DNA from: the human T2T-CHM13v2.0 reference genome, Homo sapiens
Assembly (NCBI RefSeq): GCF_009914755.1
Contig: NC_060946.1
DNA length: 64,000 nt
Strand: one strand, 5' to 3'
This document shows, in pieces, positions 3,877 through 45,600 of the stretch. Positions within the stretch are counted from its first letter, which is position 1, and each line of letters starts with the position of its first letter. Made by a program: the position numbers and the translations under genes. The notes beneath the pieces were generated by a model, which was not told the DNA's origin, did no database searches, and saw only the letters and a program-made list of their open reading frames with translations.

Positions 3877-4149
<273 letters not shown>

Positions 4150-5517: not shown

Positions 5518-5904
5518 TGGATATGGGCGTCATCAATTCCATTGTATTCAGTAATGCTGTACACCATTAACAATGGCAGACTGATTGGGAGTGGATATTG
5601 ATAGCATTATAAAAGTCAGTTATTAGAGGGATACTTCTTTAACCTGACTGAAGAACTGATCTAATGGCTTTAGTACAGTGCATGATTATGTGCGATGTTT
5701 TGAGACAGAGTAGTACATTTGTGAATGAAATTTTATGGCTTTTTTTTCACTTAGTAGGAACCATTGTGTGTGGAAAAGTGAGAAAATGGCTTTATGCTGT
5801 AGGGTCTGGCATTCATTGTAGATGTAAGCTGATTTTTCTGTGAGCAAATCTTATTCAATAAAATACTACTCTTTATACTAAAAAACAAAAACAGTGGTGA
5901 TGTG

Positions 5905-6236
5905 TGGTCATTACCCTCAGCAAACTTATCCAGGGAAAAGAAAACCAAACGCCACAACTCACTTATAATGGGAGCTGAAAAATGAGATCCCATGGACACA
6001 GGAAGGGGAACAACACACACTGGGGCCTTCCGGGAGACAGAGCGTTAAGAAAAACAGCTACTGCATGCTGGGCTTAATACCTAGGTGATGGGTTGACAGG
6101 TGCAGCAAACCACCATGGCACACGTTAACCTTAGTAACAAATCTGCACATCCTGCACATATACCCCAGAACTTAGGAACGAAACGAAACAAAAGACAACG
6201 AAAAAGCAATAGCAAAACGCTAAAGGCAAAATAAAG
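5905..6236 (+). mobile_element. L1PA (older primate subfamily) 3' UTR fragment with decayed A-tail (in every unit)
   Basis: cctcagcaaact...ctcacttataa.tgggagctga...ggacaca..gaggggaacaacacacactgggg...aatacctaggtgatgggttgacaggtgcagcaaaccaccatggcacacg...cctgcacat.taccccagaactta, then an A-rich tail. Confidence 0.85.
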
Positions 6237-6369
6237 TTTCAAACTGAGAAAGTGACAGACCAACGTCTGGTTCAAATCATGGTTCTCAACCCAGGTGCCA
6301 TAAGGTCGGGATAAAGGATGTGATTACATATTGTCAATAAGACATGCAGCAAATGACCAGAATGATTAT

Positions 6370-6842
6370 TCTCAACATATGTGTGTCTTCTAATTCAATG
6401 GTGACGCTATCTACCGGGACATAGCATTAGATTCCAAAGGGCCGAGTCCCGCCAGACAGGCCTCCCACACTAATAACAATGGGAAGCCCTACGTTGCTTT
6501 ACCTGTGCTTCTCAGCCACTGGCTATAAATCAGGTTGCCACCACTCCCAGATTTAGTTGCATTCATTTGCTGGAAGAGCTCACAGCACGCAGGGAAACAC
6601 TTACATCTGCCGTTGTATTTTAGCGGACATTGCACAAAGTTCAGAAATAAATGTGGGGCCCGGCACGTGGGGAGGGGCGCACTACCTTCCAGGAAGTGTT
6701 ATCCGGAAGCTCTCTGAACCCAGTCCTTTTGGGTTTTGATGGAGACCTCATTCTATAGGCATGATGGGTTAAACCATAGGCTATTGGTGATCAACTCCAC
6801 CTGGGGCTCTCCACCCTCCCTGGAAATTGGGGTTGAGGCTTT
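6370..6842. mobile_element. MER21-family LTR fragment (in every unit)
   Basis: Diagnostic MER21 segments: ggctataaatc.gg; atttgctggaagagctcacag..cagggaaacacttac; ggaagctctctgaacccagtccttttgggtttt.atggag; ggctattggtgatcaactc.acct; ccctccctgga..ttgggg. Confidence 0.7.
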
Positions 6843-6920
6843 GCCATTCTCAGTCTGACTAAAAGAATTTACCCAAACGGAATTTTAAAACAGATGAGCA
6901 TAACTGGAATCTTAATTAGA

Positions 6921-6931
6921 TGATTGGATTA
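6921..6931 (-). promoter_or_regulatory. DUX4/double-homeodomain-type binding motif TAATCCAATCA
   Basis: The + strand reads TGATTGGATTA, an exact fit to the DUX4 consensus TAAYYYAATCA. It is conserved in all 9 complete units (6921, 13229, 19658, 25938, 32363, 38663, 45088, 51376, 57823). Binding itself is not shown. Confidence 0.55.
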
Positions 6932-7393
6932 TCTGGAGCCACACCTTGATATTCCTAACCCGAGCACCCTCATCCAACGAATGCTCCACCCAACTGGCTC
7001 CCAAGTCTCTACGTGGTTCCAGAGCAAAAGGATGTTGATACAACGCATATCTCCACCTTTTCTTCAAAGTCTTTTCGCTTACACGGAAAGACTTCTTCAA
7101 CTGCCATGCATCAGGGTCAGGGGGAGGTCTTGTTACAACACAGATCTGCGGATCTCCGGCGTTTGACTGTGGCAAGGATGCTGCTGGTGTCAAAACCACA
7201 ACGTGGGAACCACAGAACCACTAGTGGGTTTTCAGTGTTTCAGTGCATACAATTCCTAATATTTCTGGCCAAGAAAACTTGTAAGTTCTTAGATTGTCCC
7301 AAAGGTGGCGCATGAAATCAAAGCAGGAGAACAGTTTCCTACGAGGTGTAGCCTGGGAAAGTTGGGGGTGACTGATGGAAAGGAGGAGTGAAG

Positions 7394-7465
7394 CTCCGCC
7401 CTTTCCGCTGCTAGGCTGCGCCCGAGGCTATTTAAACCCACCCTGGCTGGCCTGTACTCAGATCT
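7394..7465 (+). promoter_or_regulatory. Predicted Pol II core promoter: GC box, TATA-like box and initiator
   Basis: CTCCGCCC (7394-7401, an Sp/KLF GC box), TATTTAAA (7429-7436), and Inr CTCA(+1)GA with A at 7460, 31 bp after the TATA T. Local CpG enrichment. TATA positions in the other units: 13737, 20166, 26446, 32871, 39171, 45596, 51884, 58331. Confidence 0.65.
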
Positions 7466-7585
7466 TCGCGGAGCGGATCAGCGGCCGGAGCGTTTGGCGG
7501 ACTCTGCGTGGACTTGGAGCTCACAGCGTCTTGCGACTTGGAAGCGGGTTCAGAGGACGGGACAGAACACTTGGGCAAGTGAATC

Positions 7586-7624
<39 letters not shown>

Positions 7625-7737
7625 CATTGGTTGGTTGATTTCCATTTTCTTAAGGGGCACATACCTCACACCGCACACACACAAACACACACACGCACAC
7701 ACACACGCACACGCACACGCACACACACGCACACGCA
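7586..7737 (+). repeat. (TCTG)n and (CA/CG)n microsatellites in the predicted 5' leader
   Basis: (TCTG)9 in unit 1, with 9,7,5,6,7,6,7,6,6 copies across units 1-9. It is followed by a ~65-bp alternating CACACGCACA tract. Confidence 0.9.
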
Positions 7738-7799
7738 CTCCTTCCTTCTGCGAGTTAGAACATTAGTAGGGGCCCCTGGGAGCTGCAGGTTTCCTAATC

Positions 7800-10781
7800 A
7801 TGTCTGCACCTAAGAACAGTAGGGTCTTGTCTGGCTCTTCTTATGAACGGTTCCCCAGCCCGGACTCCCCAAGGTCCATGCGAGCCTCACCCAGCTTCTC
7901 CCTCTCCCCTCTCAGAAACTCAGGCTTAAGGGGAAGCTCCTCACCAGGGATCCGGAGCTACCATTCACCATCCCCTAGGGCTTCACCACACTCACCTCTG
8001 TCGTCACCAGAATCCCACAAGCTCCCATTTCCCTGTCCTCACCGTGATGGGCAATCAATGAAGCCATTGGGCTCTCCCGTGTCCTCTTCTGAGGATTCCT
8101 CAGAGTCCCCACGTTCATCAATAATATACCACATGTTCTTACTGCCATCACCCAGCAGCTCACCCCCAGCTCTCGGGGGGTCTCCTGTGTCTCCCAGCTA
8201 CTCTCCAAACAACCCCAGATTTCAGCTGCGGTCAGCCCCCCACACCCAGGAATCACCTACAAACTCACGAGCCTCACTTTGCTCCACCCCCGTGTCTTTC
8301 ATCTCTTCACCCCCAGGCCTCAGGGACTCTCCTGTGGCTCCCAGTTACTCTCCAGCCATCCCCAGGTTCCTGCGGGAGTCAGCCCCATGCGCCCAGGAGT
8401 CCCCCAGAGACTCACAGGTCTCGGGAGATTATGAGCGGTCCCCCAGCCCTGACTCCTCAAGATTCATGTCTGTCTCACCCAGCTTCTCCCTCTCCCCTCC
8501 CAGAAACTCAGACCCAAGGGGCAGCTCCTCACCAGGGATGTGGAAGTCCTCTACATCATCCCGCAGGGCTTCACCACTCTCACATCCGTCATCAACAGAA
8601 TTCCACAACTTTACGTTTCCCTTTCCTAACCAAGCAGGACAGTCACTCATGTCATTGTGTTCTCCCGTGACCTCCTCTGGAGATTCTTCACAGTCACCTC
8701 ATTCATCAATAATATACCATATGTTCTTACTGCCATCATCCAGCAGCTCACCCCCAGCCACCCATGACTCTCCTGTCTGTCCCAGCTACTCTCCAACTAC
8801 GCCCAGATTTCAGCGGGAGTCTGTACCCCACACCACAGAAACACCTACAAACTCACAGACCTCAGTGAGATCCTCGCCAGTCTCTCTCACGTCTTCACCC
8901 CCAGCCCTTACGGACCCTCCAGTCTGTCCCAGCTACTCTCCAACCACGCCCACATTTCAGCGCGGGTCAGTTCCAGGAACCCAGGGATCACCACCAAGCC
9001 CACCGCTTTCACTGAGTTACTCCCCAGTCTCTAGCACGTCTTTATCTCCAACCCTCAGGGACTCGCCTGTCTGTCCCAGCTACTCTCCAAACACGCCCAC
9101 ACTTCAGCGGGAGTCCGTTGCAGGCACCCAGAAGTCACCATCAAACTCACCAATTTCACTGCGTTACTCCCCAGTCTCTCTCATGTCTTCACCATCCCTC
9201 AGGGACTCTCCCGTCTGTCCCAGCTACTCTCCAACCACGCCCACATTTCAGCTGGAGTCAGTTCCAGGCACCCAGGAATCACCACCAAACTCACCAATTT
9301 CACTCAGTTACTCCTCAGTCTCTAGCACGTCTTTATCTCCAACCCTCAGGGACTCTCCTGTGTGTCCCAGCTACTCTCCAACCACGCCCACACTTCAGCG
9401 GGAGTCAGTTCCAGGCACCCAGGAATCACCACCAAACTCACCAATTTCACTCAATTACTCTCCAGTCTCTCTCGTGTCTTCACCAGCCCTCAGGGACTCT
9501 CCTGTCTGTCCCAGCTACTCTCCAACCACGCCCACATTTCAGCTGGAGTCAGTTCCAGGCACCCCGGAGTCACCACCAAACTCACCAGTTTCACTCAGTT
9601 ACTCCCCGGTCTCTCTCATGTCTTCACCCCCAGCCCTCAGGGACTCTCCTGTGCGTCCCAGCTACTCTCCAACCATGCCCAGATTTCAGCGGGAGTCAGT
9701 TCCAGGCACCCATGTGTCATCACCAAACTCAGCAGTTTCACTGAGTTACTCCCCAGTCTCTCTCATGTCTTCACCCCCAGACCCCTGGGACTCTCCTGTC
9801 TGTCCCAGCTACTCTCCCACCACGCCCAGATTTCAGCGGGAGTCAGCCTCCCACACTCCGGAATCAGATACAGACTCACAGACTTCACTGAGCTCCTCCC
9901 TGGTCTCTCTCAGGTCTTTGCCCTCATCCCACAGGGACTCTTGTGTCTCTTTCAGCTACTCTCAAAACTTCTCTAGATTCCAGCTGGAGTCAGTTCCAGG
10001 CACCCACGATACACCACCGAACTCACGAATTTCACTGACTTACTCCCCTGTCTCCCTCATGTTCTCACCCCCAGCCCTCAGGGACTCTTCTGTCTCTCTC
10101 AGCTACTCTCCAACCATCTCCAGATTTCACCTGGAGTCAGCTTCCCACACCCTGGAATCACCTGCAAACTCACGGACCTTACTGCAACCATCCCCCATTT
10201 CTTTCACCTCTTCACCCCCTGCCTTCAGGGACTCTCCTGGGTCTCCCAGCTTCTCTCCAGCCTTCCCCAGATTTCTGCCACAGTCAGCCCCAGGCACCCA
10301 GGACAACCCTAGACACTCACAGGCCTCACCAGACTATCTCCCTATGACCTGTACCTATACAGGGATGGCTCCCACGCATCCCTCAGTGACCCCAAACCCA
10401 TCTCAACTTACACTCAGGCACTCCCAGGGCCTGACAGCTACACCCCGTTATTGTCCTTCAGTTCGAAGCCCTGGCCAATCTACTAGCCCACATGACGCAG
10501 TTACCTGGCCATTTCTCCACGGTTCCCGGGAGGGCCCCACACCCAGCCGCACAAGAGCCCCTCCTGCATTCCGTCCTCACACGCAGGCCTGTCCATCTAC
10601 TTGCTACTGTCACACTCTTGCCAGCAGAAGAGGCCCCTGTAATGGCCGATATCACCACCCAGTCTATCCTCACCCCACAGCTGTGCAGCGGGAACCCCCT
10701 GCTGGCCCACGTGGCTGCCACAGCCCATGCTGGCACGACGCTCCAGCAGGTCGGCGTCCCTGCGGGCCAAACTACCGGTGA
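7800..10781 (+). CDS. Ser/Pro/Thr-rich Pol II CTD-like repeat protein, type A (993 aa), unit 1
   Basis: Uninterrupted 2982-bp ORF. The ATG has A at -3 and is the first ATG after the predicted TSS. It contains 49-aa repeats with PSYSPTTP. Translation is unproven. Confidence 0.6.
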   Translation: MSAPKNSRVLSGSSYERFPSPDSPRSMRASPSFSLSPLRNSGLRGSSSPGIRSYHSPSPRASPHSPLSSPESHKLPFPCPHRDGQSMKPLGSPVSSSEDSSESPRSSIIYHMFLLPSPSSSPPALGGSPVSPSYSPNNPRFQLRSAPHTQESPTNSRASLCSTPVSFISSPPGLRDSPVAPSYSPAIPRFLRESAPCAQESPRDSQVSGDYERSPSPDSSRFMSVSPSFSLSPPRNSDPRGSSSPGMWKSSTSSRRASPLSHPSSTEFHNFTFPFPNQAGQSLMSLCSPVTSSGDSSQSPHSSIIYHMFLLPSSSSSPPATHDSPVCPSYSPTTPRFQRESVPHTTETPTNSQTSVRSSPVSLTSSPPALTDPPVCPSYSPTTPTFQRGSVPGTQGSPPSPPLSLSYSPVSSTSLSPTLRDSPVCPSYSPNTPTLQRESVAGTQKSPSNSPISLRYSPVSLMSSPSLRDSPVCPSYSPTTPTFQLESVPGTQESPPNSPISLSYSSVSSTSLSPTLRDSPVCPSYSPTTPTLQRESVPGTQESPPNSPISLNYSPVSLVSSPALRDSPVCPSYSPTTPTFQLESVPGTPESPPNSPVSLSYSPVSLMSSPPALRDSPVRPSYSPTMPRFQRESVPGTHVSSPNSAVSLSYSPVSLMSSPPDPWDSPVCPSYSPTTPRFQRESASHTPESDTDSQTSLSSSLVSLRSLPSSHRDSCVSFSYSQNFSRFQLESVPGTHDTPPNSRISLTYSPVSLMFSPPALRDSSVSLSYSPTISRFHLESASHTLESPANSRTLLQPSPISFTSSPPAFRDSPGSPSFSPAFPRFLPQSAPGTQDNPRHSQASPDYLPMTCTYTGMAPTHPSVTPNPSQLTLRHSQGLTATPRYCPSVRSPGQSTSPHDAVTWPFLHGSREGPTPSRTRAPPAFRPHTQACPSTCYCHTLASRRGPCNGRYHHPVYPHPTAVQREPPAGPRGCHSPCWHDAPAGRRPCGPNYR
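8150..10400 (+). repeat. ACRO1-type 147-bp satellite block, coding within the long ORF (in every unit)
   Basis: Core cccagctactctcc (or a variant) at 8193 and 8340, then 8781, 8928, 9075, 9219, 9366, 9510, 9657, 9804, 9951, 10098 and 10245. Spacing is 147 bp, or 144 bp in two places. Long units have one extra monomer. Confidence 0.85.
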
Positions 10782-11325: not shown

Positions 11326-13893
11326 TACCCACAGGGGGAAACCATTTTATTGGGGGCTTTTAGTAACACCGGTGTTTTCTCCTTCCTTACATCCTTCTTT
11401 CCATCCTTCCTTCCTTCCTTCCTTCCTTCCTTCCTTCCTGACTTCCTTCTTTCCTTCCCTCCTTCCTCCTATTTCTCTCTTACTCCTTCTGCCCTCTCTC
11501 TTTCCTATGCCTTAGGTGCATCCCACATTCTGCGTTTTTTTGGGGGAAATCCTCGACAGGTGCAGGAAAATTGTGTTATTGTAACTATTTACCGTTATCT
11601 CTCTTTCACGGCTCTCCATCAGTTGTGAACATCTATTGGTTTATCCCAAGTCACTAAGCATATTTTCATTAGGTAAACCTGTTTTTCCTTATACAGCTGT
11701 TTCTGGAGTATAGGGTCGCATACTCATAAACCCAGTGTAACTCAGAAACGCATCTAATATTCCAGTAAACCCATCATAACGTTGAAAAATCGTAAATCAA
11801 ACCATCATAAGTCACGGTTTGTCCGTGGATATGGGCGTCATCAATTCCATTGTATTCAGTAATGCTGTACACCATTAACAATGGCAGACTGATTGGGAGT
11901 GGATATTGATAGCATTATAAAAGTCAGTTATTAGAGGGATACTTCTTTAACCTGACTGAAGAACTGATCTAATGGCTTTAGTACAGTGCATGATTATGTG
12001 CGATGTTTTGAGACAGAGTAGTGCATTTGTGAATGAAATTTTATGGCTTTTTTTTCACTTAGTAGGAACCATTGTGTGTGGAAAAGTGAGAAAATGGCTT
12101 TCTGCTGTAGGGTCTGGCATTCATTGTAGATGTAAGCTTATTTTTCTGTGAGCAAATCTTATTCAATAAAATACTACTCTTTATACTAAAAAACAAAAAC
12201 AGTGGTGATGTGTGGTCATTACCCTCAGCAAACTTATCCAGGGAAAAGAAAACCAAACGCCACAACTCACTTATAATGGGAGCTGAAAAATGAGATCCCA
12301 TGGACACAGGAAGGGGAACAACACACACTGGGGCCTTCCGGGAGACAGAGCGTTAAGAAAAACAGCTACTGCATGCTGGGCCTAATACCTAGGTGATGGG
12401 TTGACAGGTGCAGCAAACCACCATGGCACACGTTAACCTTAGTAACAAACCTGCACATCCTGCACATATACCCCAGAACTTAGGAACGAAACGAAACAAA
12501 AGACAACGAAAAAGCAATAGCAAAACGCTAAAGGCAAAATAAAGTTTCAAACTGAGAAAGTGACAGACCAACGTCTGGTTGAAATCATGGTTCTCAACCC
12601 AGGTGCCATAAGGTCGGGATAAAGGATGTGATTACATATTGTCAATAAGACATGCAGCAAATGACCAGAATGATTATTCTCAACATATGTGTGTCTTCTA
12701 ATTCAATGGTGACGCTATCTACCGGGACATAGCATTAGATTCCAAAGGGCCGAGTCCCGCCAGACAGGCCTCCCACAATAATAACAATGGGAAGCCCTAC
12801 GTTGCTTTACCTGTGCTTCTCAGCCACTGGCTATAAATCAGGTTGCCACCACTCCCAGATTTAGTTGCATTCATTTGCTGGAAGAGCTCACAGCACGCAG
12901 GGAAACACTTACATCTGCCGTTGTATTTTAGCGGACATTGCACAAAGTTCAGAAATAAATGTGGGGCCCGGCACGTGGGGAGGGGCGCACTACCTTCCAG
13001 GAAGTGTTATCCGGAAGCTCTCTGAACCCAGTCCTTTTGGGTTTTGATGGAGACCTCATTCTATAGGCATGATGGGTTAAACCATAGGCTATTGGTGATC
13101 AACTCCACCTGGGGCTCTCCACCCTCCCTGGAAATTGGGGTTGAGGCTTTGCCATCCTCAGTCTGACTAAAAGAATTTACCCAAACGGAATTTTAAAACA
13201 GATGAGCATAACTGGAATCTTAATTAGATGATTGGATTATCTGGAGCCACACCTTGATATTCCTAACCCGAGCACCCTCATCCAACGAATGCTCCACCCA
13301 ACTGGCTCCGAAGTCTCTACGTGGTTCCAGAGCAAAAGGATGTTGATACAACGCATATCTCCACCTTTTCTTCAAAGTCTTTTCGCTTACACGGAAAGAC
13401 TTCTTCAACTGCCATGCATCAGGGTCAGGGGGAGGTCTTGTTACAACACAGATCTGCGGATCTCCGGCGTTTGACTGTGGCAAGGATGCTGCTGGTGTCA
13501 AAACCACAACGTGGGAACCACAGAACCACTAGTGGGTTTTCAGTGTTTCAGTGCATAGAATTCCTAATATTTCTGGCCAAGAAAACTTGTAAGTTCTTAG
13601 ATTGTCCCAAAGGTGGCGCATGAAATCAAAGCAGGAGAACAGTTTCCTACGAGGTGTAGCCTGGGAAAGTTGGGGGTGACTGATGGAAAGGAGGAGTGAA
13701 GCTCCGCCCTTTCCGCTGCTAGGCTGCGCCCGAGGCTATTTAAACCCACCCTGGCTGGCCTGTACTCAGATCTTCGCGGAGCGGATCAGCGGCCGGAGCG
13801 TTTGGCGGACTCTGCGTGGACTTGGAGCTCACAGCGTCTTGCGACTTGGAAGCGGATTCAGAGGACAGGACAGAACACTTGGGCAAGTGAATC

Positions 13894-13924
<31 letters not shown>

Positions 13925-17228: not shown

Positions 17229-20200
17229 CATGTCTAGCGTGACCCTCCTTCCTGGCAGTGACACTGTTGATGTGAACCCCAATTTCACATCTGTCATTTG
17301 TAAATAGGACCATTTTCCCTTTTCGCTCTCCCTTCCATTCACAGGGCTTTTCATTCTCTCTGTTACTGCCTCCGTTTCAGATATTTACTCACCTTTTTCT
17401 CTCTCACTATGTCTGCCGTGGTCTCCATGAGAGTGCGCCACATAAGATTCCCCCATTAAAAGTCATGAATTGAGTGGCTTTTAGTATACCTGTGGTTGTG
17501 CACATTCAAATTTAATTCGCAATTCATTGTAGAACGTCTTATCACTCCCGGCCAGAGAAAAACCCTGTAGACATTAGTCACTCCTCATTCTGTCTCAAAC
17601 CCTCTCCCTGACCCGCAGCCCTAGGTAGCAACTACCTAGTGCGATCAATCCCATATGCATAGATTACCATATTGTGGACATTTCCTATAAGCGGAATTAC
17701 ACAATAGGTGAGCTGTTATGACTGACATAACACGTAGCACAATATTTTCAAGATTCGTCCACATTGTAGGCTTACCCACAGGGGGAAACCATTTTATTGG
17801 GGGCTTTTAGTAACACCGGTGTTTTCTCCTTCCTTACGTCCTTCTTTCCTTCCTTCCTTCCTTCCTTCCTGACTTCCTTCTTTCCTTCCCTCCTTCCTCC
17901 TATTTCTCTCTAACTCCTTCTGCCCTCTCTCTTTCCTATGCCTTAGGTGCATCCCACATTCTGCGTTTTTTTGGGGAAATCCTCGACAGGTGCAGGAAAA
18001 TTGTGTTATTGTAACTATTTACCGTTATCTCTCTTTCACGGCTCTCCATCAGTTGTGAACATCTATTGGTTTATCCCAAGTCACTAAGCATATTTTCATT
18101 AGGTAAACCTGTTTTTCCTTATACAGCTGTTTCTGGAGTATAGGGTCGCATACTCATAAACCCAGTGTAACTCAGAAACGCATCTAATATTCCAGTAAAC
18201 CCATCATAACGTTGAAAAATCGTAAATCAAACCATCATAAGTCACGGTTTGTCCGTGGATATGGGCGTCATCAATTCCATTGTATTCAGTAATGCTGTAC
18301 ACCATTAACAATGGCAGACTGATTGGGAGTGGATATTGATAGCATTATAAAAGTCAGTTATTAGAGGGATACTTCTTTAACCTGACTGAAGAACTGATCT
18401 AATGGCTTTAGTACAGTGCATGATTATGTGCGATGTTTTGAGACAGAGTAGTACATCTGTGAATGAAATTTTATGGCTTTTTTTTCACTTAGTAGGAACC
18501 ATTGTGTGTGGAAAAGTGAGAAAATGGCTTTATGCTGTAGGGTCTGGCATTCATTGTAGATGTAAGCTGATTTTTCTGTGAGCAAATCTTATTCAATAAA
18601 ATACTACTCTTTATACTAAAAAACAAAAACAGTGGTGATGTGTGGTCATTATCCTCAGCAAACTTATCCGGGGAAAGAAAACCAAACGCCACAACTCACT
18701 TATAATGGGAGCTGAAAAATGAGATCCCATGGACACAGGAAGGGGAAGAACACACACTGAGGCCTTCCGGGAGACAGAGCGTTAAGAAAAACAGCTACTG
18801 CATGCTGGGCCTAATACCTAGGTGATGGGTTGACAGGTGCAGCAAACCACCATGGCACACGTTTACCTTAGTAACAAATCTGCACATCCTGCACATATAC
18901 CCCAGAACTTAGGAACGAAACGAAACAAAAGACAACGAAAAAACAATAGCAAAACGCTAAAGGCAAAATAAAGTTTCAAACTGAGAAAGTGACAGACCAA
19001 CGTCTGGTTCAAATCATGGTTCTCAACCCAGGTGCCATAAGGTCGGGATAAAGGATGTGATTACATATTGTCAATAAGACATGCAGCAAATGACCAGAAT
19101 GATTATTCTCAACATATGTGTGTCTTCTAATTCAATGGTGACGCTATCTACCGGGACATAGCATTAGATTCCAAAGGGCCGAGTCCCGCCAGACAGGCCT
19201 CCCACACTAATAACAATGGGAAGCCCTACGTTGCTTTACCTGTGCTTCTCAGCCACTGGCTATAAATCAGGTTGCCACCACTCCCAGATTTAGTTGCATT
19301 CATTTGCTGGAAGAGCTCACAGCACGCAGGGAAACACTTACATCTGCCGTTGTATTTTAGCGGACATTGCACAAAGTTCAGAAATAAATGTGGGGCCCGG
19401 CACGTGGGGAGGGGCGCACTACCTTCCAGGAAGTGTTATCCGGAAGCTCTCTGAACCCAGTCCTTTTGGGTTTTGATGGAGACCTCATTCTATAGGCATG
19501 ATGGGTTAAACCATAGGCTATTGGTGATCAACTCCACCTGGGGCTCTCCACCCTCCCTGGAAATTGGGGTTGAGGTTTTGCCATTCTCAGTCTGACTAAA
19601 AGAATTTACCCAAACGGAATTTTAAAACAGATGAGCATAACTGGAATCTTAATTAGATGATTGGATTATCTGGAGCCACACCTTGATATTCCTAACCCGA
19701 GCACCCTCATCCAACGAATGCTCCACCCAACTGGCTCCCAAGTCTCTACGTGGTTCCAGAGCAAAAGGATGTTGATACAACGCATATCTCCACCTTTTCT
19801 TCAAAGTCTTTTCGCTTACACGGAAAGACTTCTTCAACTGCCATGCATCAGGGTCAGGGGGAGGTCTTGTTACAACCCAGATCTGCGGATCTCCGGCGTT
19901 TGACTGTGGCAAGGATGCTGCTGGTGTCAAAACCACAACGTGGGAACCACAGAACCACTAGTGGGTTTTCAGTGTTTCAGTGCATACAATTCCTAATATT
20001 TCTGGCCAAGAAAACTTGTAAGTTCTTAGATTGTCCCAAAGGTGGCGCATGAAATCAAAGCAGGAGAACAGTTTCCTACGAGGTGTAGCCTGGGAAAGTT
20101 GGGGGTGACTGATGGAAAGGAGGAGTGAAGCTCCGCCCTTTCCGCTGCTAGGCTGCGCCCGAGGCTATTTAAACCCACCCTGGCTGGCCTGTACTCAGAT

Positions 20201-23502: not shown

Positions 23503-26500
23503 CATGTCTAGCGTGACCCTCCTTCCTGGCAGTGACACTGTTGATGTGAACCCCAATTTCACATCTGTCATTTGTAAATAGGACCATTTTCCCTTTTCGC
23601 TCTCCCTTCCATTCACAGGGCTTTTCATTCTCTCTGTTACTGCCTCCGTTTCAGATATTTACTCACCTTTTTCTCTCTCACTATGTCTGCCGTGGTCTCC
23701 ATGAGAGTGCGCCACATAAGATTCCCCCATTAAAAGTCATGAATTGAGTGGCTTTTAGTATACCTGTGGTTGTGCACATTCAAATTTAATTCGCAATTCA
23801 TTGTAGAACGTCTTATCACTCCCGGCCAGAGAAAAACCCTGTAGACATTAGTCACTCCTCATTCTGTCTCAAACCCTCTCCCTGACCCTCAGCCCTAGGT
23901 AGCAACTACCTAGTGCGATCAATCCCATATGCATAGATTATCATATTGTGGACATTTCCTATAAGCGGAATTACACAATAGGTGAGCTGTTATGACTGAC
24001 ATAACACGTAGCACAATATTTTCAAGATTCGTCCACATTGTAGGCTTACCCACAGGGGGAAACCATTTTATTGGGGGCTTTTAGTAACACCGGTGTTTTC
24101 TCCTTCCTTACATCCTTCTTTCCATCCTTCCTTCCTTCCTTCCTTCCTGACTTCCTTCTTTCCTTCCCTCCTTCCTCCTATTTCTCTCTTACTCCTTCTG
24201 CCCTCTCTCTTTCCTATGCCTTAGGTGCATCCCACATTCTGCGTTTTTTTGGGGGAAATCCTCGACAGGTGCAGGAAAATTGTGTTATTGTAACTATTTA
24301 CCGTTATCTCTCTTTCACGGCTCTCCATCAGTTGTGAACATCTATTGGTTTATCCCAAGTCACTAAGCATATTTTCATTAGGTAAACCTGTTTTTCCTTA
24401 TACAGATGTTTCTGGAGTATAGGGTCGCATACTCATAAACCCAGTGTAACTCAGAAACGCATCTAATATTCCAGTAAACCCATCATAACGTTGAAAAATC
24501 GTAAATCAAACCATCATAAGTCACGGTTTGTCCGTGGATATGGGCGTCATCAATTCCATTGTATTCAGTAATGCTGTACACCATTAACAATGGCAGACTG
24601 ATTGGGAGTGGATATTGATAGCATTATAAAAGTCAGTTATTAGAGGGATACTTCTTTAACCTGACTGAAGAACTGATCTAATGGCTTTAGTACAGTGCAT
24701 GATTATGTGCGATGTTTTGAGACAGAGTAGTACATTTGTGAATGAAATTTTATGGCTTTTTTTTCACTTAGTAGGAACCATTGTGTGTGGAAAAGTGAGA
24801 AAATGGCTTTATGCTGTAGGGTCTGGCATTCATTGTAGATGTAAGCTTATTTATCTGTGAGCAAATCTTATTCAATAAAATACTACTCTTTATACTAAAA
24901 AACAAAAACAGTGGTGATGTGTGGTCATTACCCTCAGCAAACTTATCCAGGGAAAAGAAAACCAAACGCCACAACTCACTTATAATGGGAGCTGAAAAAT
25001 GAGATCCCATGGACACAGGAAGGGGAACAACACACACTGGGGCCTTCCGGGAGACAGAGCGTTAAGAAAAACAGCTACTGCATGCTGGGCCTAATACCTA
25101 GGTGATGGGTTGACAGGTGCAGCAAACCACCATGGCACACGTTAACCTTAGTAACAAATCTGCACATCCTGCACATATACCCCAGAACTTAGGAACGAAA
25201 CGAAACAAAAGACAACGAAAAAGCAACAGCAAAACGCTAAAGGCAAAATAGAGTTTCAAACTGAGAAAGTGACAGACCAACGTCTGGTTCAAATCATGGT
25301 TCTCAACCCAGGTGCCATAAGGTCGGGATAAAGGATGTGGTTACATATTTTCAATAAGACATGCAGCAAATGACCAGAATGATTATTCTCAACATATGTG
25401 TGTCTTCTAATTCAATGGTGACGCTATCTACCGGGACATAGCATTAGATTCCAAAGGGCCGAGTCCCGCCAGACAGGCCTCCCACACTAATAACAATGGG
25501 AAGCCCTACGTTGCTTTACCTGTGCTTCTCAGCCACTGGCTATAAATCAGGTTGCCACCACTCCCAGATTTAGTTGCATTCATTTGCTGGAAGAGCTCAC
25601 AGCACGCAGGGAAACACTTACATTTGCCGTTGTATTTTAGCGGACATTGCACAAAGTTCAGAAAAAAATGTGGGGCCCGGCATGTGGGGAGGGGCGCACT
25701 ACCTTCCAGGAAGTGCTATCCAGAAGCTCTCTGAACCCAGTCCTTTTGGGTTTTGATGGAGACCTCATTCTATAGGCATGATGGGTTAAACCATAGGCTA
25801 TTGGTGATCAACTCCACCTGGGGCTCTCCACCCTCCCTGGAAATTGGGGTTGAGGCTTTGCCATCCTCAGTCTGACTAAAAGAATTTACCCAAACGGAAT
25901 TTTAAAACAGATGAGCATAACTGGAATCTTAATTAGATGATTGGATTATCTGGAGCCACACCTTGATATTCCTAACCCGAGCACCCTCATCCAACGAATG
26001 CTCCACCCAACTGGCTCCCAAGTCTCTACGTGGTTCCAGAGCAAAAGGATGTTGATACAACGCATATCTCCACCTTTTCTTCAAAGTCTTTTCGCTTACA
26101 CGGAAAGACTTCTTCAACTGCCATGCATCAGGGTCAGGGGGAGGTCTTGTTACAACCCAGATCTGCGGATCTCCGGCGTTTGACTGTGGCAAGGATGCTG
26201 CTGGTGTCAAAACCACAACGTGGGAACCACAGAACCACTAGTGGGTTTTCAGTGTTTCAGTGCATACAATTCCTAATATATCTGGCCAAGAAAACTTGTA
26301 AGTTCTTAGATTGTCCCAAAGGTGGCGCATGAAATCAAAGCAGGAGAACAGTTTCCTACGAGGTGTAGCCTGGGAAAGTTGGGGGTGACTGATGGAAAGG
26401 AGGAGTGAAGCTCCGCCCTTTCCGCTGCTAGGCTGCGCCCGAGGCTATTTAAACCCACCCTGGCTGGCCTGTACTCAGATCTTCGCGGAGCGGATCAGCG

Positions 26501-29933: not shown

Positions 29934-32900
29934 CATGTCTAGCGTGACCCTCCTTCCTGGCAGTGACACTGTTGATGTGAACCCCAATTTCACATCTGTC
30001 ATTTGTAAATAGGACCATTTTCCCTTTTCGCTCTCCCTTCCATTCACAGGGCTTTTCATTCTCTCTGTTACTGCCTCCGTTTCAGATATTTACTCACCTT
30101 TTTCTCTCTCACTATGTCTGCCGTGGTCTCCATGAGAGTGCGCCACATAAGATTCCCCCATTAAAAGTCATGAATTGAGTGGCTTTTAGTATACCTGTGG
30201 TTGTGCACATTCAAATTTAATTCGCAATTCATTGTAGAACGTCTTATCACTCCCGGCCAGAGAAAAACCCTGTAGACATTAGTCACTCCTCATTCTGTCT
30301 CAAACCCTCTCCCTGACCCGCAGCCCTAGGTAGCAACTACCTAGTGCGATCAATCCCATATGCATAGATTACCATATTGTGGACATTTCCTATAAGCGGA
30401 ATTACACAATAGGTGAGCTGTTATGACTGACATAACACGTAGCACAATATTTTCAAGATTCGTCCACATTGTAGGCTTACCCACAGGGGGAAACCATTTT
30501 ATTGGGGGCTTTTAGTAACACCGGTGTTTTCTCCTTCCTTACGTCCTTCTTTCCTTCCTTCCTTCCTTCCTTCCTGACTTCCTTCTTTCCTTCCCTCCTT
30601 CCTCCTATTTCTCTCTAACTCCTTCTGCCCTCTCTCTTTCCTATGCCTTAGGTGCATCCCACATTCTGCGTTTTTTTGGGGAAATCCTCGACAGGTGCAG
30701 GAAAATTGTGTTATTGTAACTATTTACCGTTATCTCTCTTTCACGGCTCTCCATCAGTTGTGAACATCTATTGGTTTATCCCAAGTCACTAAGCATATTT
30801 TCATTAGGTAAACCTGTTTTTCCTTATACAGCTGTTTCTGGAGTATAGGGTCGCATACTCATAAACCCAGTGTAACTCAGAAACGCATCTAATATTCCAG
30901 TAAACCCATCATAACGTTGAAAAATCGTAAATCAAACCATCATAAGTCACGGTTTGTCCGTGGATATGGGCGTCATCAATTCCATTGTATTCAGTAATGC
31001 TGTACACCATTAACAATGGCAGACTGATTGGGAGTGGATATTGATAGCATTATAAAAGTCAGTTATTAGAGGGATACTTCTTTAACCTGACTGAAGAACT
31101 GATCTAATGGCTTTAGTACAGTGCATGATTATGTGCGATGTTTTGAGACAGAGTAGTACATCTGTGAATGAAATTTTATGGCTTTTTTTTCACTTAGTAG
31201 GAACCATTGTGTGTGGAAAAGTGAGAAAATGGCTTTATGCTGTAGGGTCTGGCATTCATTGTAGATGTAAGCTGATTTTTCTGTGAGCAAATCTTATTCA
31301 ATAAAATACTACTCTTTATACTAAAAAACAAAAACAGTGGTGATGTGTGGTCATTATCCTCAGCAAACTTATCCGGGGAAAGAAAACCAAACGCCACAAC
31401 TCACTTATAATGGGAGCTGAAAAATGAGATCCCATGGACACAGGAAGGGGAAGAACACACACTGAGGCCTTCCGGGAGACAGAGCGTTAAGAAAAACAGC
31501 TACTGCATGCTGGGCCTAATACCTAGGTGATGGGTTGACAGGTGCAGCAAACCACCATGGCACACGTTTACCTTAGTAACAAATCTGCACATCCTGCACA
31601 TATACCCCAGAACTTAGGAACGAAACGAAACAAAAGACAACGAAAAAACAATAGCAAAACGCTAAAGGCAAAATAAAGTTTCAAACTGAGAAAGTGACAG
31701 ACCAACGTCTGGTTCAAATCATGGTTCTCAACCCAGGTGCCATAAGGTCGGGATAAAGGATGTGATTACATATTGTCAATAAGACATGCAGCAAATGACC
31801 AGAATGATTATTCTCAACATATGTGTGTCTTCTAATTCAATGGTGACGCTATCTACCGGGACATAGCATTAGATTCCAAAGGGCCGAGTCCCGCCAGACA
31901 GGCCTCCCACACTAATAACAATGGGAAGCCCTACGTTGCTTTACCTGTGCTTCTCAGCCACTGGCTATAAATCAGGTTGCCACCACTCCCAGATTTAGTT
32001 GCATTCATTTGCTGGAAGAGCTCACAGCACGCAGGGAAACACTTACATCTGCCGTTGTATTTTAGCGGACATTGCACAAAGTTCAGAAATAAATGTGGGG
32101 CCCGGCACGTGGGGAGGGGCGCACTACCTTCCAGGAAGTGTTATCCGGAAGCTCTCTGAACCCAGTCCTTTTGGGTTTTGATGGAGACCTCATTCTATAG
32201 GCATGATGGGTTAAACCATAGGCTATTGGTGATCAACTCCACCTGGGGCTCTCCACCCTCCCTGGAAATTGGGGTTGAGGTTTTGCCATTCTCAGTCTGA
32301 CTAAAAGAATTTACCCAAACGGAATTTTAAAACAGATGAGCATAACTGGAATCTTAATTAGATGATTGGATTATCTGGAGCCACACCTTGATATTCCTAA
32401 CCCGAGCACCCTCATCCAACGAATGCTCCACCCAACTGGCTCCCAAGTCTCTACGTGGTTCCAGAGCAAAAGGATGTTGATACAACGCATATCTCCACCT
32501 TTTCTTCAAAGTCTTTTCGCTTACACGGAAAGACTTCTTCAACTGCCATGCATCAGGGTCAGGGGGAGGTCTTGTTACAACCCAGATCTGCGGATCTCCG
32601 GCGTTTGACTGTGGCAAGGATGCTGCTGGTGTCAAAACCACAACGTGGGAACCACAGAACCACTAGTGGGTTTTCAGTGTTTCAGTGCATACAATTCCTA
32701 ATATTTCTGGCCAAGAAAACTTGTAAGTTCTTAGATTGTCCCAAAGGTGGCGCATGAAATCAAAGCAGGAGAACAGTTTCCTACGAGGTGTAGCCTGGGA
32801 AAGTTGGGGGTGACTGATGGAAAGGAGGAGTGAAGCTCCGCCCTTTCCGCTGCTAGGCTGCGCCCGAGGCTATTTAAACCCACCCTGGCTGGCCTGTACT

Positions 32901-36215: not shown

Positions 36216-39200
36216 CATGTCTAGCGTGACCCTCCTTCCTGGCAGTGACACTGTTGATGTGAACCCCAATTTCACATCTGTCATTTGTAAATAGGACCAT
36301 TTTCCCTTTTCGCTCTCCCTTCCATTCACAGGGCTTTTCATTCTCTCTGTTACTGCCTCCGTTTCAGATATTTACTCACCTTTTTCTCTCTCACTATGTC
36401 TGCCGTGGGCTCCATGAGAGTGCGCCACATAAGATTCCCCCATTAAAAGTCATGAATTGAGTGGCTTTTAGTATACCTGTGGTTGTGCACATTCAAATTT
36501 AATTCGCAATTCATTGTAGAACGTCTTATCACTCCCGGCCAGAGAAAAACCCTGTAGACATTAGTCACTCCTCATTCTGTCTCAAACCCTCTCCCTGACC
36601 CTCAGCCCTAGGTAGCAACTACCTAGTGCGATCAATCCCATATGCATAGATTATCATATTGTGGACATTTCCTATAAGCGGAATTACACAATAGGTGAGC
36701 TGTTATGACTGACATAACACGTAGCACAATATTTTCAAGATTCGTCCACATTGTAGGCTTACCCACAGGGGGAAACCATTTTATTGGGGGCTTTTAGTAA
36801 CACCGGTGTTTTCTCCTTCCTTACATCCTTCTTTCCATCCTTCCTTCCTTCCTTCCTTCCTTCCTTCCTTCCTGACTTCCTTCTTTCCTTCCCTCCTTCC
36901 TCCTATTTCTCTCTTACTCCTTCTGCCCTCTCTCTTTCCTATGCCTTAGGTGCATCCCACATTCTGCGTTTTTTTGGGGGAAATCCTCGACAGGTGCAGG
37001 AAAATTGTGTTATTGTAACTATTTACCGTTATCTCTCTTTCACGGCTCTCCATCAGTTGTGAACATCTATTGGTTTATCCCAAGTCACTAAGCATATTTT
37101 CATTAGGTAAACCTGTTTTTCCTTATACAGCTGTTTCTGGAGTATAGGGTCGCATACTCATAAACCCAGTGTAACTCAGAAACGCATCTAATATTCCAGT
37201 AAACCCATCATAACGTTGAAAAATCGTAAATCAAACCATCATAAGTCACGGTTTGTCCGTGGATATGGGCGTCATCAATTCCATTGTATTCAGTAATGCT
37301 GTACACCATTAACAATGGCAGACTGATTGGGAGTGGATATTGATAGCATTATAAAAGTCAGTTATTAGAGGGATACTTCTTTAACCTGACTGAAGAACTG
37401 ATCTAATGGCTTTAGTACAGTGCATGATTATGTGCGATGTTTTGAGACAGAGTAGTGCATTTGTGAATGAAATTTTATGGCTTTTTTTTCACTTAGTAGG
37501 AACCATTGTGTGTGGAAAAGTGAGAAAATGGCTTTCTGCTGTAGGGTCTGGCATTCATTGTAGATGTAAGCTTATTTTTCTGTGAGCAAATCTTATTCAA
37601 TAAAATACTACTCTTTATACTAAAAAACAAAAACAGTGGTGATGTGTGGTCATTACCCTCAGCAAACTTATCCAGGGAAAAGAAAACCAAACGCCACAAC
37701 TCACTTATAATGGGAGCTGAAAAATGAGATCCCATGGACACAGGAAGGGGAACAACACACACTGGGGCCTTCCGGGAGACAGAGCGTTAAGAAAAACAGC
37801 TACTGCATGCTGGGCCTAATACCTAGGTGATGGGTTGACAGGTGCAGCAAACCACCATGGCACACGTTAACCTTAGTAACAAATCTGCACATCCTGCACA
37901 TATACCCCAGAACTTAGGAACGAAACGAAACAAAAGACAACGAAAAAGCAACAGCAAAACGCTAAAGGCAAAATAGAGTTTCAAACTGAGAAAGTGACAG
38001 ACCAACGTCTGGTTCAAATCATGGTTCTCAACCCAGGTGCCATAAGGTCGGGATAAAGGATGTGGTTACATATTTTCAATAAGACATGCAGCAAATGACC
38101 AGAATGATTATTCTCAACATATGTGTGTCTTCTAATTCAATGGTGACGCTATCTACCGGGACATAGCATTAGATTCCAAAGGGCCGAGTCCCGCCAGACA
38201 GGCCTCCCACACTAATAACAATGGGAAGCCCTACGTTGCTTTACCTGTGCTTCTCAGCCACTGGCTATAAATCAGGTTGCCACCACTCCCAGATTTAGTT
38301 GCATTCATTTGCTGGAAGAGCTCACAGCACGCAGGGAAACACTTACATTTGCCGTTGTATTTTAGCGGACATTGCACAAAGTTCAGAAAAAAATGTGGGG
38401 CCCGGCATGTGGGGAGGGGCGCACTACCTTCCAGGAAGTGCTATCCAGAAGCTCTCTGAACCCAGTCCTTTTGGGTTTTGATGGAGACCTCATTCTATAG
38501 GCATGATGGGTTAAACCATAGGCTATTGGTGATCAACTCCACCTGGGGCTCTCCACCCTCCCTGGAAATTGGGGTTGAGGCTTTGCCATCCTCAGTCTGA
38601 CTAAAAGAATTTACCCAAACGGAATTTTAAAACAGATGAGCATAACTGGAATCTTAATTAGATGATTGGATTATCTGGAGCCACACCTTGATATTCCTAA
38701 CCCGAGCACCCTCATCCAACGAATGCTCCACCCAACTGGCTCCCAAGTCTCTACGTGGTTCCAGAGCAAAAGGATGTTGATACAACGCATATCTCCACCT
38801 TTTCTTCAAAGTCTTTTCGCTTACACGGAAAGACTTCTTCAACTGCCATGCATCAGGGTCAGGGGGAGGTCTTGTTACAACCCAGATCTGCGGATCTCCG
38901 GCGTTTGACTGTGGCAAGGATGCTGCTGGTGTCAAAACCACAACGTGGGAACCACAGAACCACTAGTGGGTTTTCAGTGTTTCAGTGCATACAATTCCTA
39001 ATATATCTGGCCAAGAAAACTTGTAAGTTCTTAGATTGTCCCAAAGGTGGCGCATGAAATCAAAGCAGGAGAACAGTTTCCTACGAGGTGTAGCCTGGGA
39101 AAGTTGGGGGTGACTGATGGAAAGGAGGAGTGAAGCTCCGCCCTTTCCGCTGCTAGGCTGCGCCCGAGGCTATTTAAACCCACCCTGGCTGGCCTGTACT

Positions 39201-42658: not shown

Positions 42659-45600
42659 CATGTCTAGCGTGACCCTCCTTCCTGGCAGTGACACTGTTGA
42701 TGTGAACCCCAATTTCACATCTGTCATTTGTAAATAGGACCATTTTCCCTTTTCGCTCTCCCTTCCATTCACAGGGCTTTTCATTCTCTCTGTTACTGCC
42801 TCCGTTTCAGATATTTACTCACCTTTTTCTCTCTCACTATGTCTGCCGTGGTCTCCATGAGAGTGCGCCACATAAGATTCCCCCATTAAAAGTCATGAAT
42901 TGAGTGGCTTTTAGTATACCTGTGGTTGTGCACATTCAAATTTAATTCGCAATTCATTGTAGAACGTCTTATCACTCCCGGCCAGAGAAAAACCCTGTAG
43001 ACATTAGTCACTCCTCATTCTGTCTCAAACCCTCTCCCTGACCCGCAGCCCTAGGTAGCAACTACCTAGTGCGATCAATCCCATATGCATAGATTACCAT
43101 ATTGTGGACATTTCCTATAAGCGGAATTACACAATAGGTGAGCTGTTATGACTGACATAACACGTAGCACAATATTTTCAAGATTCGTCCACATTGTAGG
43201 CTTACCCACAGGGGGAAACCATTTTATTGGGGGCTTTTAGTAACACCGGTGTTTTCTCCTTCCTTACGTCCTTCTTTCCTTCCTTCCTTCCTTCCTTCCT
43301 GACTTCCTTCTTTCCTTCCCTCCTTCCTCCTATTTCTCTCTAACTCCTTCTGCCCTCTCTCTTTCCTATGCCTTAGGTGCATCCCACATTCTGCGTTTTT
43401 TTGGGGAAATCCTCGACAGGTGCAGGAAAATTGTGTTATTGTAACTATTTACCGTTATCTCTCTTTCACGGCTCTCCATCAGTTGTGAACATCTATTGGT
43501 TTATCCCAAGTCACTAAGCATATTTTCATTAGGTAAACCTGTTTTTCCTTATACAGCTGTTTCTGGAGTATAGGGTCGCATACTCATAAACCCAGTGTAA
43601 CTCAGAAACGCATCTAATATTCCAGTAAACCCATCATAACGTTGAAAAATCGTAAATCAAACCATCATAAGTCACGGTTTGTCCGTGGATATGGGCGTCA
43701 TCAATTCCATTGTATTCAGTAATGCTGTACACCATTAACAATGGCAGACTGATTGGGAGTGGATATTGATAGCATTATAAAAGTCAGTTATTAGAGGGAT
43801 ACTTCTTTAACCTGACTGAAGAACTGATCTAATGGCTTTAGTACAGTGCATGATTATGTGCGATGTTTTGAGACAGAGTAGTACATCTGTGAATGAAATT
43901 TTATGGCTTTTTTTTCACTTAGTAGGAACCATTGTGTGTGGAAAAGTGAGAAAATGGCTTTATGCTGTAGGGTCTGGCATTCATTGTAGATGTAAGCTGA
44001 TTTTTCTGTGAGCAAATCTTATTCAATAAAATACTACTCTTTATACTAAAAAACAAAAACAGTGGTGATGTGTGGTCATTATCCTCAGCAAACTTATCCG
44101 GGGAAAGAAAACCAAACGCCACAACTCACTTATAATGGGAGCTGAAAAATGAGATCCCATGGACACAGGAAGGGGAAGAACACACACTGAGGCCTTCCGG
44201 GAGACAGAGCGTTAAGAAAAACAGCTACTGCATGCTGGGCCTAATACCTAGGTGATGGGTTGACAGGTGCAGCAAACCACCATGGCACACGTTTACCTTA
44301 GTAACAAATCTGCACATCCTGCACATATACCCCAGAACTTAGGAACGAAACGAAACAAAAGACAACGAAAAAACAATAGCAAAACGCTAAAGGCAAAATA
44401 AAGTTTCAAACTGAGAAAGTGACAGACCAACGTCTGGTTCAAATCATGGTTCTCAACCCAGGTGCCATAAGGTCGGGATAAAGGATGTGATTACATATTG
44501 TCAATAAGACATGCAGCAAATGACCAGAATGATTATTCTCAACATATGTGTGTCTTCTAATTCAATGGTGACGCTATCTACCGGGACATAGCATTAGATT
44601 CCAAAGGGCCGAGTCCCGCCAGACAGGCCTCCCACACTAATAACAATGGGAAGCCCTACGTTGCTTTACCTGTGCTTCTCAGCCACTGGCTATAAATCAG
44701 GTTGCCACCACTCCCAGATTTAGTTGCATTCATTTGCTGGAAGAGCTCACAGCACGCAGGGAAACACTTACATCTGCCGTTGTATTTTAGCGGACATTGC
44801 ACAAAGTTCAGAAATAAATGTGGGGCCCGGCACGTGGGGAGGGGCGCACTACCTTCCAGGAAGTGTTATCCGGAAGCTCTCTGAACCCAGTCCTTTTGGG
44901 TTTTGATGGAGACCTCATTCTATAGGCATGATGGGTTAAACCATAGGCTATTGGTGATCAACTCCACCTGGGGCTCTCCACCCTCCCTGGAAATTGGGGT
45001 TGAGGTTTTGCCATTCTCAGTCTGACTAAAAGAATTTACCCAAACGGAATTTTAAAACAGATGAGCATAACTGGAATCTTAATTAGATGATTGGATTATC
45101 TGGAGCCACACCTTGATATTCCTAACCCGAGCACCCTCATCCAACGAATGCTCCACCCAACTGGCTCCCAAGTCTCTACGTGGTTCCAGAGCAAAAGGAT
45201 GTTGATACAACGCATATCTCCACCTTTTCTTCAAAGTCTTTTCGCTTACACGGAAAGACTTCTTCAACTGCCATGCATCAGGGTCAGGGGGAGGTCTTGT
45301 TACAACCCAGATCTGCGGATCTCCGGCGTTTGACTGTGGCAAGGATGCTGCTGGTGTCAAAACCACAACGTGGGAACCACAGAACCACTAGTGGGTTTTC
45401 AGTGTTTCAGTGCATACAATTCCTAATATTTCTGGCCAAGAAAACTTGTAAGTTCTTAGATTGTCCCAAAGGTGGCGCATGAAATCAAAGCAGGAGAACA
45501 GTTTCCTACGAGGTGTAGCCTGGGAAAGTTGGGGGTGACTGATGGAAAGGAGGAGTGAAGCTCCGCCCTTTCCGCTGCTAGGCTGCGCCCGAGGCTATTT

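What the first reader, a model, noticed from the sequence alone, without database searches (positions are those of the whole stretch)
6913..6931. Perfect DUX4-type site ~530 bp upstream of each predicted TSS
Seen: TGATTGGATTA (reverse complement TAATCCAATCA), immediately preceded by a second homeodomain-like TAATTA. It is invariant in all 9 units and lies just outside the MER21 fragment. Known: DUX4 binds TAAYYYAATCA and activates cleavage-stage genes and repeats (ZSCAN4, PRAMEF, TRIM43, MBD3L, ERVL/MaLR, HSATII), many of them in tandem gene clusters. Inference: the array could be a zygotic-genome-activation or FSHD-induced gene cluster, which is when a Pol II CTD modulator would be most meaningful. 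Caveat: an 11-bp degenerate motif can occur by chance, and identity across units only reflects array homogenisation.
Basis: partly seen in the sequence, partly recalled or inferred. Interest (0 to 1): 0.72.

Follow-up and report, generated by a model that had tools for sequence, protein, structure and literature searches.

The report
DUX4-bound promoter of ACRO repeat arrays
Most copies of the 6-kb ACRO repeat on human acrocentric chromosomes carry, upstream of a predicted promoter, a DNA site that the early-embryo regulator DUX4 occupies in several copies that published binding data can map, which likely explains why DUX4 switches this repeat on.

Summary
The motif is real: TAATCCAATCA (minus strand, 6921-6931) in 9 of 9 units, about 530 bp upstream of a predicted TATA/Inr start and about 80 bp outside the LTR fragment. 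The array is the known ACRO composite, and nine identical copies are one event. Published DUX4 ChIP-seq (Young 2013, Table S1) has peaks whose best motif falls on this position in five mappable paralogues: chr2 x3 (one pair spaced exactly 5,905 bp in both assemblies) and chr4 x2, which carry the window's variant. The same study's Table S2 shows ACRO1 RNA up 15.8x with no binding inside the satellite; an upstream site would reconcile the two. Against: the site is single, only about 0.8% of single-motif peaks go with induction, none of the five loci is significantly induced, the 11-mer is no more conserved than its flanks, and 30 of 214 units have lost it, including a 26-unit subfamily with open frames in the two units read. 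TAATTA is not a DUX4 site. The protein shows pN/pS near 1, so 'CTD modulator' is unsupported. Verdict: bound site, probably the direct driver; a natural motif-less control makes it testable in public data.

The parts
6921..6931 (-). DUX4 consensus site TAATCCAATCA ('CC' variant), unit 1; also contains the K50-homeodomain core TAATCC
   Evidence: ChIP peaks on the paralogous position; in vitro binding of this variant
13229..13239 (-). same site, unit 2
19658..19668 (-). same site, unit 3
25938..25948 (-). same site, unit 4
32363..32373 (-). same site, unit 5
38663..38673 (-). same site, unit 6
45088..45098 (-). same site, unit 7
51376..51386 (-). same site, unit 8
57823..57833 (-). same site, unit 9
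6913..6918 (.). TAATTA palindrome; not a DUX4 site; varies at 3 of 6 positions among paralogues
   Evidence: PMC4730607
6390..6840 (.). Truncated LTR-type dispersed repeat fragment (MER21B by published annotation of the ACRO unit); ends about 80 bp before the site
   Evidence: family name, not tested against a repeat library
7394..7401 (+). GC box (CTCCGCCC), about -65 (predicted element)
7429..7436 (+). TATA-like box TATTTAAA, -31; present in 29 of 30 aligned copies
7458..7464 (+). Inr-like TCAGATC, predicted +1 at 7460; 28 of 30 aligned copies
7460..7578 (+). Predicted non-coding exon 1; GT donor at 7579 in 30 of 30 copies (the RefSeq model uses the same donor in unit 2, 13886); 5 older copies also have a GTAAGT donor at 7575
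7579..7788 (+). Predicted intron with (TCTG)n and CA-rich repeats, ending in CTGCAG 11 bases before the first ATG
7800..10781 (+). 993-aa Ser/Pro/Thr-rich ORF (993 or 1042 aa, open in 9 of 9 units); 7800 is the first ATG after the predicted start
8748..10303 (+). ACRO1 147-bp satellite block inside the ORF, about 1.8 kb downstream of the site
   Evidence: PMC7714431

Best explanation
The site is a DUX4 consensus element that DUX4 occupies in five mappable ACRO copies and likely also in these chr22 units, where it would act as a single upstream activator of a predicted TATA/Inr promoter and so likely drives the ACRO1 RNA seen on DUX4 expression. Shown: the motif and its position; binding at the paralogous position in DUX4-transduced myoblasts; binding and reporter activity of this variant in vitro; family-level induction without binding inside the satellite. 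Inferred: the start site at 7460, splicing of exon 1 to the ORF exon, occupancy of the acrocentric copies, dependence of induction on this site, and that the 4-cell ACRO1 peak has this cause. One site is weak; about 180 copies would sum to a visible signal. The site is older than the acrocentric amplification (older dispersed copies carry TAATTCAATCA, the amplified clade TAATCCAATCA) and was carried along with it; no selection on it is detectable.
For: Peaks in Young 2013 Table S1 (hg19): chr2:133,040,969-133,041,402 (height 141) and 133,046,748-133,047,308 (121), best motifs 5,905 bp apart, exactly the spacing of the homologous sites in two chr2 copies; chr2:162,137,020-162,137,400 (151), anchored by three neighbouring peaks whose motifs lie at -63, -63 and +19 bp of the predicted places; chr4 best motifs 49,296,723 (62) and 49,309,157 (102), 12,434 bp apart against 12,435 for two CC-variant copies, one of which is 97% identical to the window over 210 bp around the site. 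3 of 3 chr2 copies have a peak. Table S2: ACRO1 0 peaks, ChIP reads 1.1x, RNA 15.8x; only two rows of the table part read are higher. All four TAATYYAATCA variants bind and activate. Promoter anatomy kept in 28-30 of 30 copies; the non-LTR upstream region varies less than the LTR part (142 of 527 against 113 of 272 columns, p=4e-5). ACRO1 peaks at 4-cell, is reported as DUX4-induced and is the most hypomethylated satellite in FSHD mutant cells.
Against: One site per unit; single motifs are weak and only about 0.8% of single-motif peaks go with induced RNA. 0 of the 5 bound loci is significantly induced (two 'not expressed'; three up with FDR 0.62-0.97). 4 of 6 intact chr4 copies have no peak (mappability is a likely cause, untested). 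The 11-mer is not more conserved than other 11-mers (53-60% of windows have as few alleles; 3 of 8 fixed positions vary against 28% background). 30 of 214 units have lost it, and the two motif-less units read keep open frames of 1135 and 1377 aa. MER52D and LTR12D are induced more with almost no peaks, so indirect induction is common. A nanopore DUX4 study's two supplements hold no 'ACRO1'. One reanalysis has ACRO1 rising after the cleavage stage. The binding data come from over-expression, with 63,795 peaks.
Confidence: 0.55

Rival explanations
1. Bound but inert: DUX4 sits on the site as on tens of thousands of others, and ACRO1 RNA rises indirectly through loss of heterochromatin or DNA methylation or through DUX4's downstream factors acting on the TATA promoter.
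For: 0.8% base rate for single-motif peaks; 0 of 5 bound loci significant; other repeats induced without peaks; ACRO1 hypomethylation in FSHD cells; no detectable constraint and repeated loss of the site.
Against: A bound perfect site within 1 kb of a promoter has a chance of about 0.4-0.5%, and it lies on a repeat independently found to be strongly DUX4-induced; locus-level tests used reads with few mapping places and are nearly blind here.
Confidence: 0.3
2. In embryos the working factor is a K50 paired-like homeodomain protein (LEUTX, TPRX, OTX2) reading the TAATCC that the amplified clade gained, with DUX4 secondary.
For: TAATCC lies inside the site and is the only one in 6280-7460; 167 of 214 units have it; LEUTX is a TAATCC-targeting activator of the genome-activation stage (PMC6258689, search listing).
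Against: A 6-mer is common by chance; older copies lack TAATCC yet are DUX4-bound; induction occurs in myoblasts on DUX4 expression, though LEUTX is itself a DUX4 target (recalled).
Confidence: 0.08
3. The RNA does not start at the predicted promoter: it is read-through or starts in the LTR fragment or L1 pieces, so the site's distance to a 'TSS' is meaningless.
For: No 5'-end data seen; no stable transcript was detected in HeLa; the RefSeq model is a prediction with a 76-bp intron and a 6.5-kb exon (annotation in the finding).
Against: TATA at -31, Inr, GC box, donor and acceptor kept across copies 84-99% identical; the LTR is truncated and the least conserved part.
Confidence: 0.07

Closest known systems
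ACRO composite / ACRE with ACRO1 satellite (Warburton 2008 PMC2588610; Boots 2020 PMC7714431; great-ape acrocentric preprint 10.64898/2025.12.22.696095)
   Same: [quoted passage not shown]
   Different: The passages read describe no promoter, no DUX4 site and no motif-less subfamily.
DUX4 activation of ACRO1 and HSATII (Hendrickson 2017, as cited in PMC8990217 and PMC11467316; Young 2013 PMC3836709)
   Same: ACRO1 RNA is DUX4-induced.
   Different: HSATII carries arrayed motifs inside the satellite and is bound there; ACRO1 has no binding inside the satellite (1.1x) and a single site 1.8 kb upstream in non-repeat sequence. Hendrickson 2017 itself could not be read.
DUX4-driven MaLR/ERVL LTR promoters (THE1, MLT1, MLT2A1)
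   Same: Single DUX4 motif on a multi-copy element with induced RNA.
   Different: The site is outside the LTR fragment and the predicted start is a separate TATA promoter 530 bp away.
Clustered DUX4 target genes (ZSCAN4, PRAMEF, TRIM43/49, MBD3L; list recalled, ZSCAN4 multi-site)
   Same: Multi-copy family with a predicted Pol II promoter, a DUX4 site and an open frame also found in a marmoset record.
   Different: One site, not several; no purifying selection on the protein among human copies; no protein evidence seen.

Membership tests
Direct DUX4 target | Consensus double-TAAT 11-mer near the start site | tested here: met
   TAATCCAATCA at -539..-529 of a predicted start
Direct DUX4 target | DUX4 occupancy in cells | tested here: met
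   Met for 5 paralogous sites on chr2 and chr4; 4 of 6 intact chr4 copies have no peak
Direct DUX4 target | Occupancy of the chr22 copies themselves | not testable with these tools
   Peaks were called on hg19 with uniquely mapped reads; no reads available here
Direct DUX4 target | RNA induced by DUX4 | tested here: inconclusive
   Family level 15.8x; locus level 0 of 5 significant; absent from one nanopore study's supplements
Direct DUX4 target | Induction depends on the motif | not testable with these tools
   Needs a reporter or subfamily-resolved RNA-seq
Direct DUX4 target | Two or more motifs (typical of strong targets) | tested here: not met
   One strict site, no 1-mismatch site, 11 other 2-mismatch sites in 4800-11000; TAATTA not bound
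Direct DUX4 target | Motif more conserved than its flanks | tested here: not met
   human paralogues only, 11 columns, low power; no primate genomes on hand
Cleavage-stage (genome activation) transcript | Transient expression at 4-8 cells | tested here: inconclusive
   4-cell peak of ACRO1 reads; rise after cleavage in another reanalysis; not resolved to copies
LTR-derived DUX4 promoter | Motif lies inside an LTR | tested here: not met
   LTR similarity ends near 6840; peaks labelled 'Unique'
Functional protein-coding gene family | Purifying selection on the ORF | tested here: not met
   pN/pS 0.53-2.57, centred near 1, over 28 pairs of 8 human copies, first 260 codons; frame open in many copies and in a marmoset record
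ACRO composite repeat | About 6-kb unit with 147-bp ACRO1 block and MER21 fragment, arrayed on acrocentrics | tested here: met
   a published ACRO FISH primer starts at 6931

The most novel reading that the evidence does not exclude
The ACRO arrays are a roughly 200-copy, DUX4-switched cleavage-stage gene family of the acrocentric short arms: DUX4 binds this site, fires a TATA promoter and makes a spliced RNA coding for a 1000-residue Ser/Pro/Thr-rich protein conserved as an open frame since New World monkeys, so that the arms that build nucleoli are transcribed by Pol II at genome activation and in FSHD muscle, with subfamilies tuned on or off by loss of the site.
Probability: 0.15. Interest if true: 0.82.

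Novelty: new member of a known kind. Interest (0 to 1): 0.58.

Why it matters
ACRO is described as the repeat class most specific to great-ape acrocentrics, rivalling rDNA, with embryo expression but little analysis. DUX4 induction of ACRO1 has been reported without, in what I could read, a cis-element. This site supplies one and explains why the satellite is induced but not bound. About 179 ACRO units would be about 1% of all perfect DUX4 sites in the genome (179 of 16,955), nearly all invisible to hg19/hg38 peak calling, so they could also act as a DUX4 sink (speculation). A 26-unit subfamily that lost the site gives a built-in control that existing public reads can test. It bears on human genome activation, FSHD markers and copy-number variation of the short arms.

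Tried and rejected
Invariance across 9 units as evidence: rejected. TAATTA as a second DUX4 element: rejected. LTR origin of the site: rejected; an older, unrecognised transposon origin was not tested because no repeat library is on hand. Selection on the 11-mer: not found; the core promoter is the least variable 40-column window but only p=0.068 after column shuffling. Co-decay of site and ORF: not found. CTD-modulator reading: unsupported. Peaks for the chr1 copy: inconclusive, no anchor. Peaks for chr19, chr20, chr21 and chr22 copies: not visible, Table S1 is held to row 49,232 of 63,795 peaks. 'ACRO1' in five supplements of PMC8990217: 0 hits, two large tables unreadable. Hendrickson 2017 and the journal version of Hoyt 2022 are not held. 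One paper search returned nothing relevant.

Full report
Observation. The sequence at 6913-6931 is TAATTA, two bases, then TGATTGGATTA. The 11-mer is the only strict TAAYYYAATCA match in each of the 9 units and lies 498 bp before TATTTAAA in all 9. An Inr-like TCAGATC gives a predicted +1 at 7460, with the TATA box at -31 and a GC box near -65. The units are about 99% identical here, and 2535 of 3852 11-column windows are invariant, so the nine copies are one event. As one event the chance is 0.4% per kb of upstream sequence and 2.3% per unit; the genome has 16,955 TAATYYAATCA sites.

What the array is. A 6.3-6.45-kb unit with a 147-bp satellite at 8748-10303 inside a 993/1042-aa ORF that is open in 9 of 9 units. 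This is the ACRO composite: Boots 2020 (PMC7714431; parts 1-3 of 5 read) describe it and its CTD likeness; Warburton 2008 (passages) give a FISH primer that starts at 6931; a great-ape preprint (passages) lists ACRO1, L1PA10, MER21B and L1MB8 and calls ACRO the most acrocentric-specific class. Seven dispersed copies of the LTR align to about 6390-6840 and no further, so the site is about 80 bp outside it.

The site across the genome. A flank-anchored search found 225 matches. I could read the motif in 214 distinct units (103, three of them; 72; 26; 10; 3): TAATCCAATCA 167, TAATTCAATCA 12, TAATGCAATCA 5, broken 30. At least 11 matches were not read. In a 30-row alignment and tree the TC variant marks the older dispersed copies (chr2, 19, 20 and a divergent acrocentric clade) and the CC variant the amplified clade. 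A subfamily of 10 units on chr15 and 16 on chr21 has lost the site; the two such units read have open frames of 1135 and 1377 aa. The 11-mer is not more conserved than other 11-mers. The non-LTR upstream region varies less than the LTR part (142 of 527 against 113 of 272 non-CpG columns); TATA, Inr and the 7579 donor are kept in 29, 28 and 30 of 30 rows, and the acceptor before the ATG in 7 of 7 other copies. Rows are related, so these p-values are only indicative.

Is it bound? Zhang 2016 (PMC4730607, passages) tested TAATCCAATCA directly: all four variants bind and activate, TAATTA is not bound, single sites are weak and two are about 20-fold stronger. Young 2013 (PMC3836709; passages and parts of Tables S1 and S2) lists hg19 peaks from DUX4-transduced myoblasts. 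Aiming with recalled offsets, I found two chr2 peaks with best motifs at 133,041,212 and 133,047,117; their spacing, 5,905 bp, equals that of the homologous sites in two chr2 ACRO copies. A third chr2 peak (162,137,203) maps to the third copy, with three neighbouring peaks anchoring within -63, -63 and +19 bp, two of them on 1-mismatch motifs. On chr4 two peaks are 12,434 bp apart against 12,435 for two CC-variant copies, the only one of 28 pairs that fits. So 3 of 3 chr2 copies and 2 of 6 intact chr4 copies are bound; neither broken chr4 copy has a peak, which does not discriminate because four intact ones lack one too. All five are labelled 'Unique'. The assignment rests on spacing, not on a liftover. 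chr1 was inconclusive; later chromosomes are cut off; the window's own copies could not appear.

Is it induced? Table S2 gives ACRO1: 61 copies, 0 peaks, ChIP reads 1.1x, RNA 15.8x; no read count or p-value is given. Induction without binding in the satellite is what a site 1.8 kb upstream would give. Two papers cite Hendrickson 2017 for DUX4 induction of ACRO1 (passages; the paper itself not seen). ACRO1 peaks at 4-cell (passages) and is the most hypomethylated satellite in FSHD mutant cells (passages). Against: 0 of 5 bound loci is significant within 1 kb; only about 0.8% of single-motif peaks go with induction; MER52D and LTR12D are induced more with one or two peaks; a nanopore study's supplements do not list ACRO1; another reanalysis has ACRO1 rising after cleavage (passages).

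Mechanism. Most likely (0.55): DUX4 binds the single site, recruits p300/CBP (named as a DUX4 partner) and activates the TATA promoter; exon 1 (7460-7578) splices to 7789 and the RNA runs through the satellite. I put binding of the acrocentric copies at about 0.85 and dependence of induction on the site at about 0.6 given binding. Weak output per copy would be summed over about 180 units, and nascent ACRO1 RNA dampens its own elongation. Rivals: bound but inert with indirect induction (0.3), K50 homeodomain factors on TAATCC (0.08; LEUTX from a search listing), or no real start here (0.07).

The protein. A predicted marmoset protein of 832 aa starts at the same Met and shares 215 of the first 300 residues, so the frame is old if that record is right. 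But pN/pS among 8 human copies is near 1 and the marmoset has 1 YSP[ST][ST]P against 6.

Novelty. DUX4 induction of ACRO1 is known, and the peaks are in a 2013 table, unrecognised as ACRO. Searches for a described site and the passages read showed none, but Hendrickson 2017 and several supplements were out of reach. I rate it a new member of a known kind, a DUX4-bound promoter on a repeat family, with a natural control that makes the question directly testable. Interest 0.58.

Noticed in passing
G000 chr15:90,959-155,072 and chr21:106,372-217,317 (L053, L054, L056, L066, L067): A 26-unit ACRO subfamily has lost the DUX4 site and also changed the TAATTA, yet the two units read have longer open frames (1135, 1377 aa); it abuts motif-bearing units in the same arrays.
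   Followed up: partly
L054 (chr15/chr21 subfamily) and L080, L081 (chr4): Both multi-copy losses of the site are two-base changes that create a CpG inside the motif, at different positions. Unexplained.
   Followed up: no
hg19 chr4:49,316,359-49,316,745 (L083 or L084, depending on orientation): A strong DUX4 peak (height 207, 0 motifs called) inside the chr4 ACRO array; it maps to window-equivalent about 5840 or about 8290, where only 2-mismatch motifs lie.
   Followed up: partly
P0002: Predicted marmoset protein, 832 aa, named as RPB1 by its source, is an ACRO ORF relative with the same N-terminus (57% over 816 aligned residues).
   Followed up: partly
L057 (chr19:47,231,716-47,231,761): One chr19 copy has two consensus DUX4 sites 35 bp apart in opposite orientation; it would be the best candidate for strong induction.
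   Followed up: no
L039, L047, L048, L049 and chr13:9.35 Mb: A divergent ACRO clade (about 85% identical to the window) has one copy on each of the five acrocentrics; by recalled coordinates these sit at the proximal edge of the rDNA arrays.
   Followed up: no
window 4804-61790: Units 1-8 alternate between 993-aa and 1042-aa ORFs (one extra 147-bp monomer), an A/B dimer of about 12.7 kb; the alternation breaks at units 8-9.
   Followed up: no
L035-L038, L040: Truncated ACRO copies on chr1, 14, 21 and 22 sit head to head with an inverted ORF fragment and keep the promoter and site.
   Followed up: no
L072:532 (chr11 dispersed LTR copy): One of 7 dispersed LTR copies has a DUX4 consensus inside the LTR, near the position where ACRO units have only a decayed match (about 6762-6772); Young Table S2 lists MER21B as 3.1x enriched for peaks.
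   Followed up: partly
window 3825-14929: The RefSeq model LOC124908428 joins the unit-1 ORF over a 76-bp intron to the promoter exon of unit 2; it looks like a model artefact across repeat units, though its donor at 13886 matches the conserved donor.
   Followed up: partly
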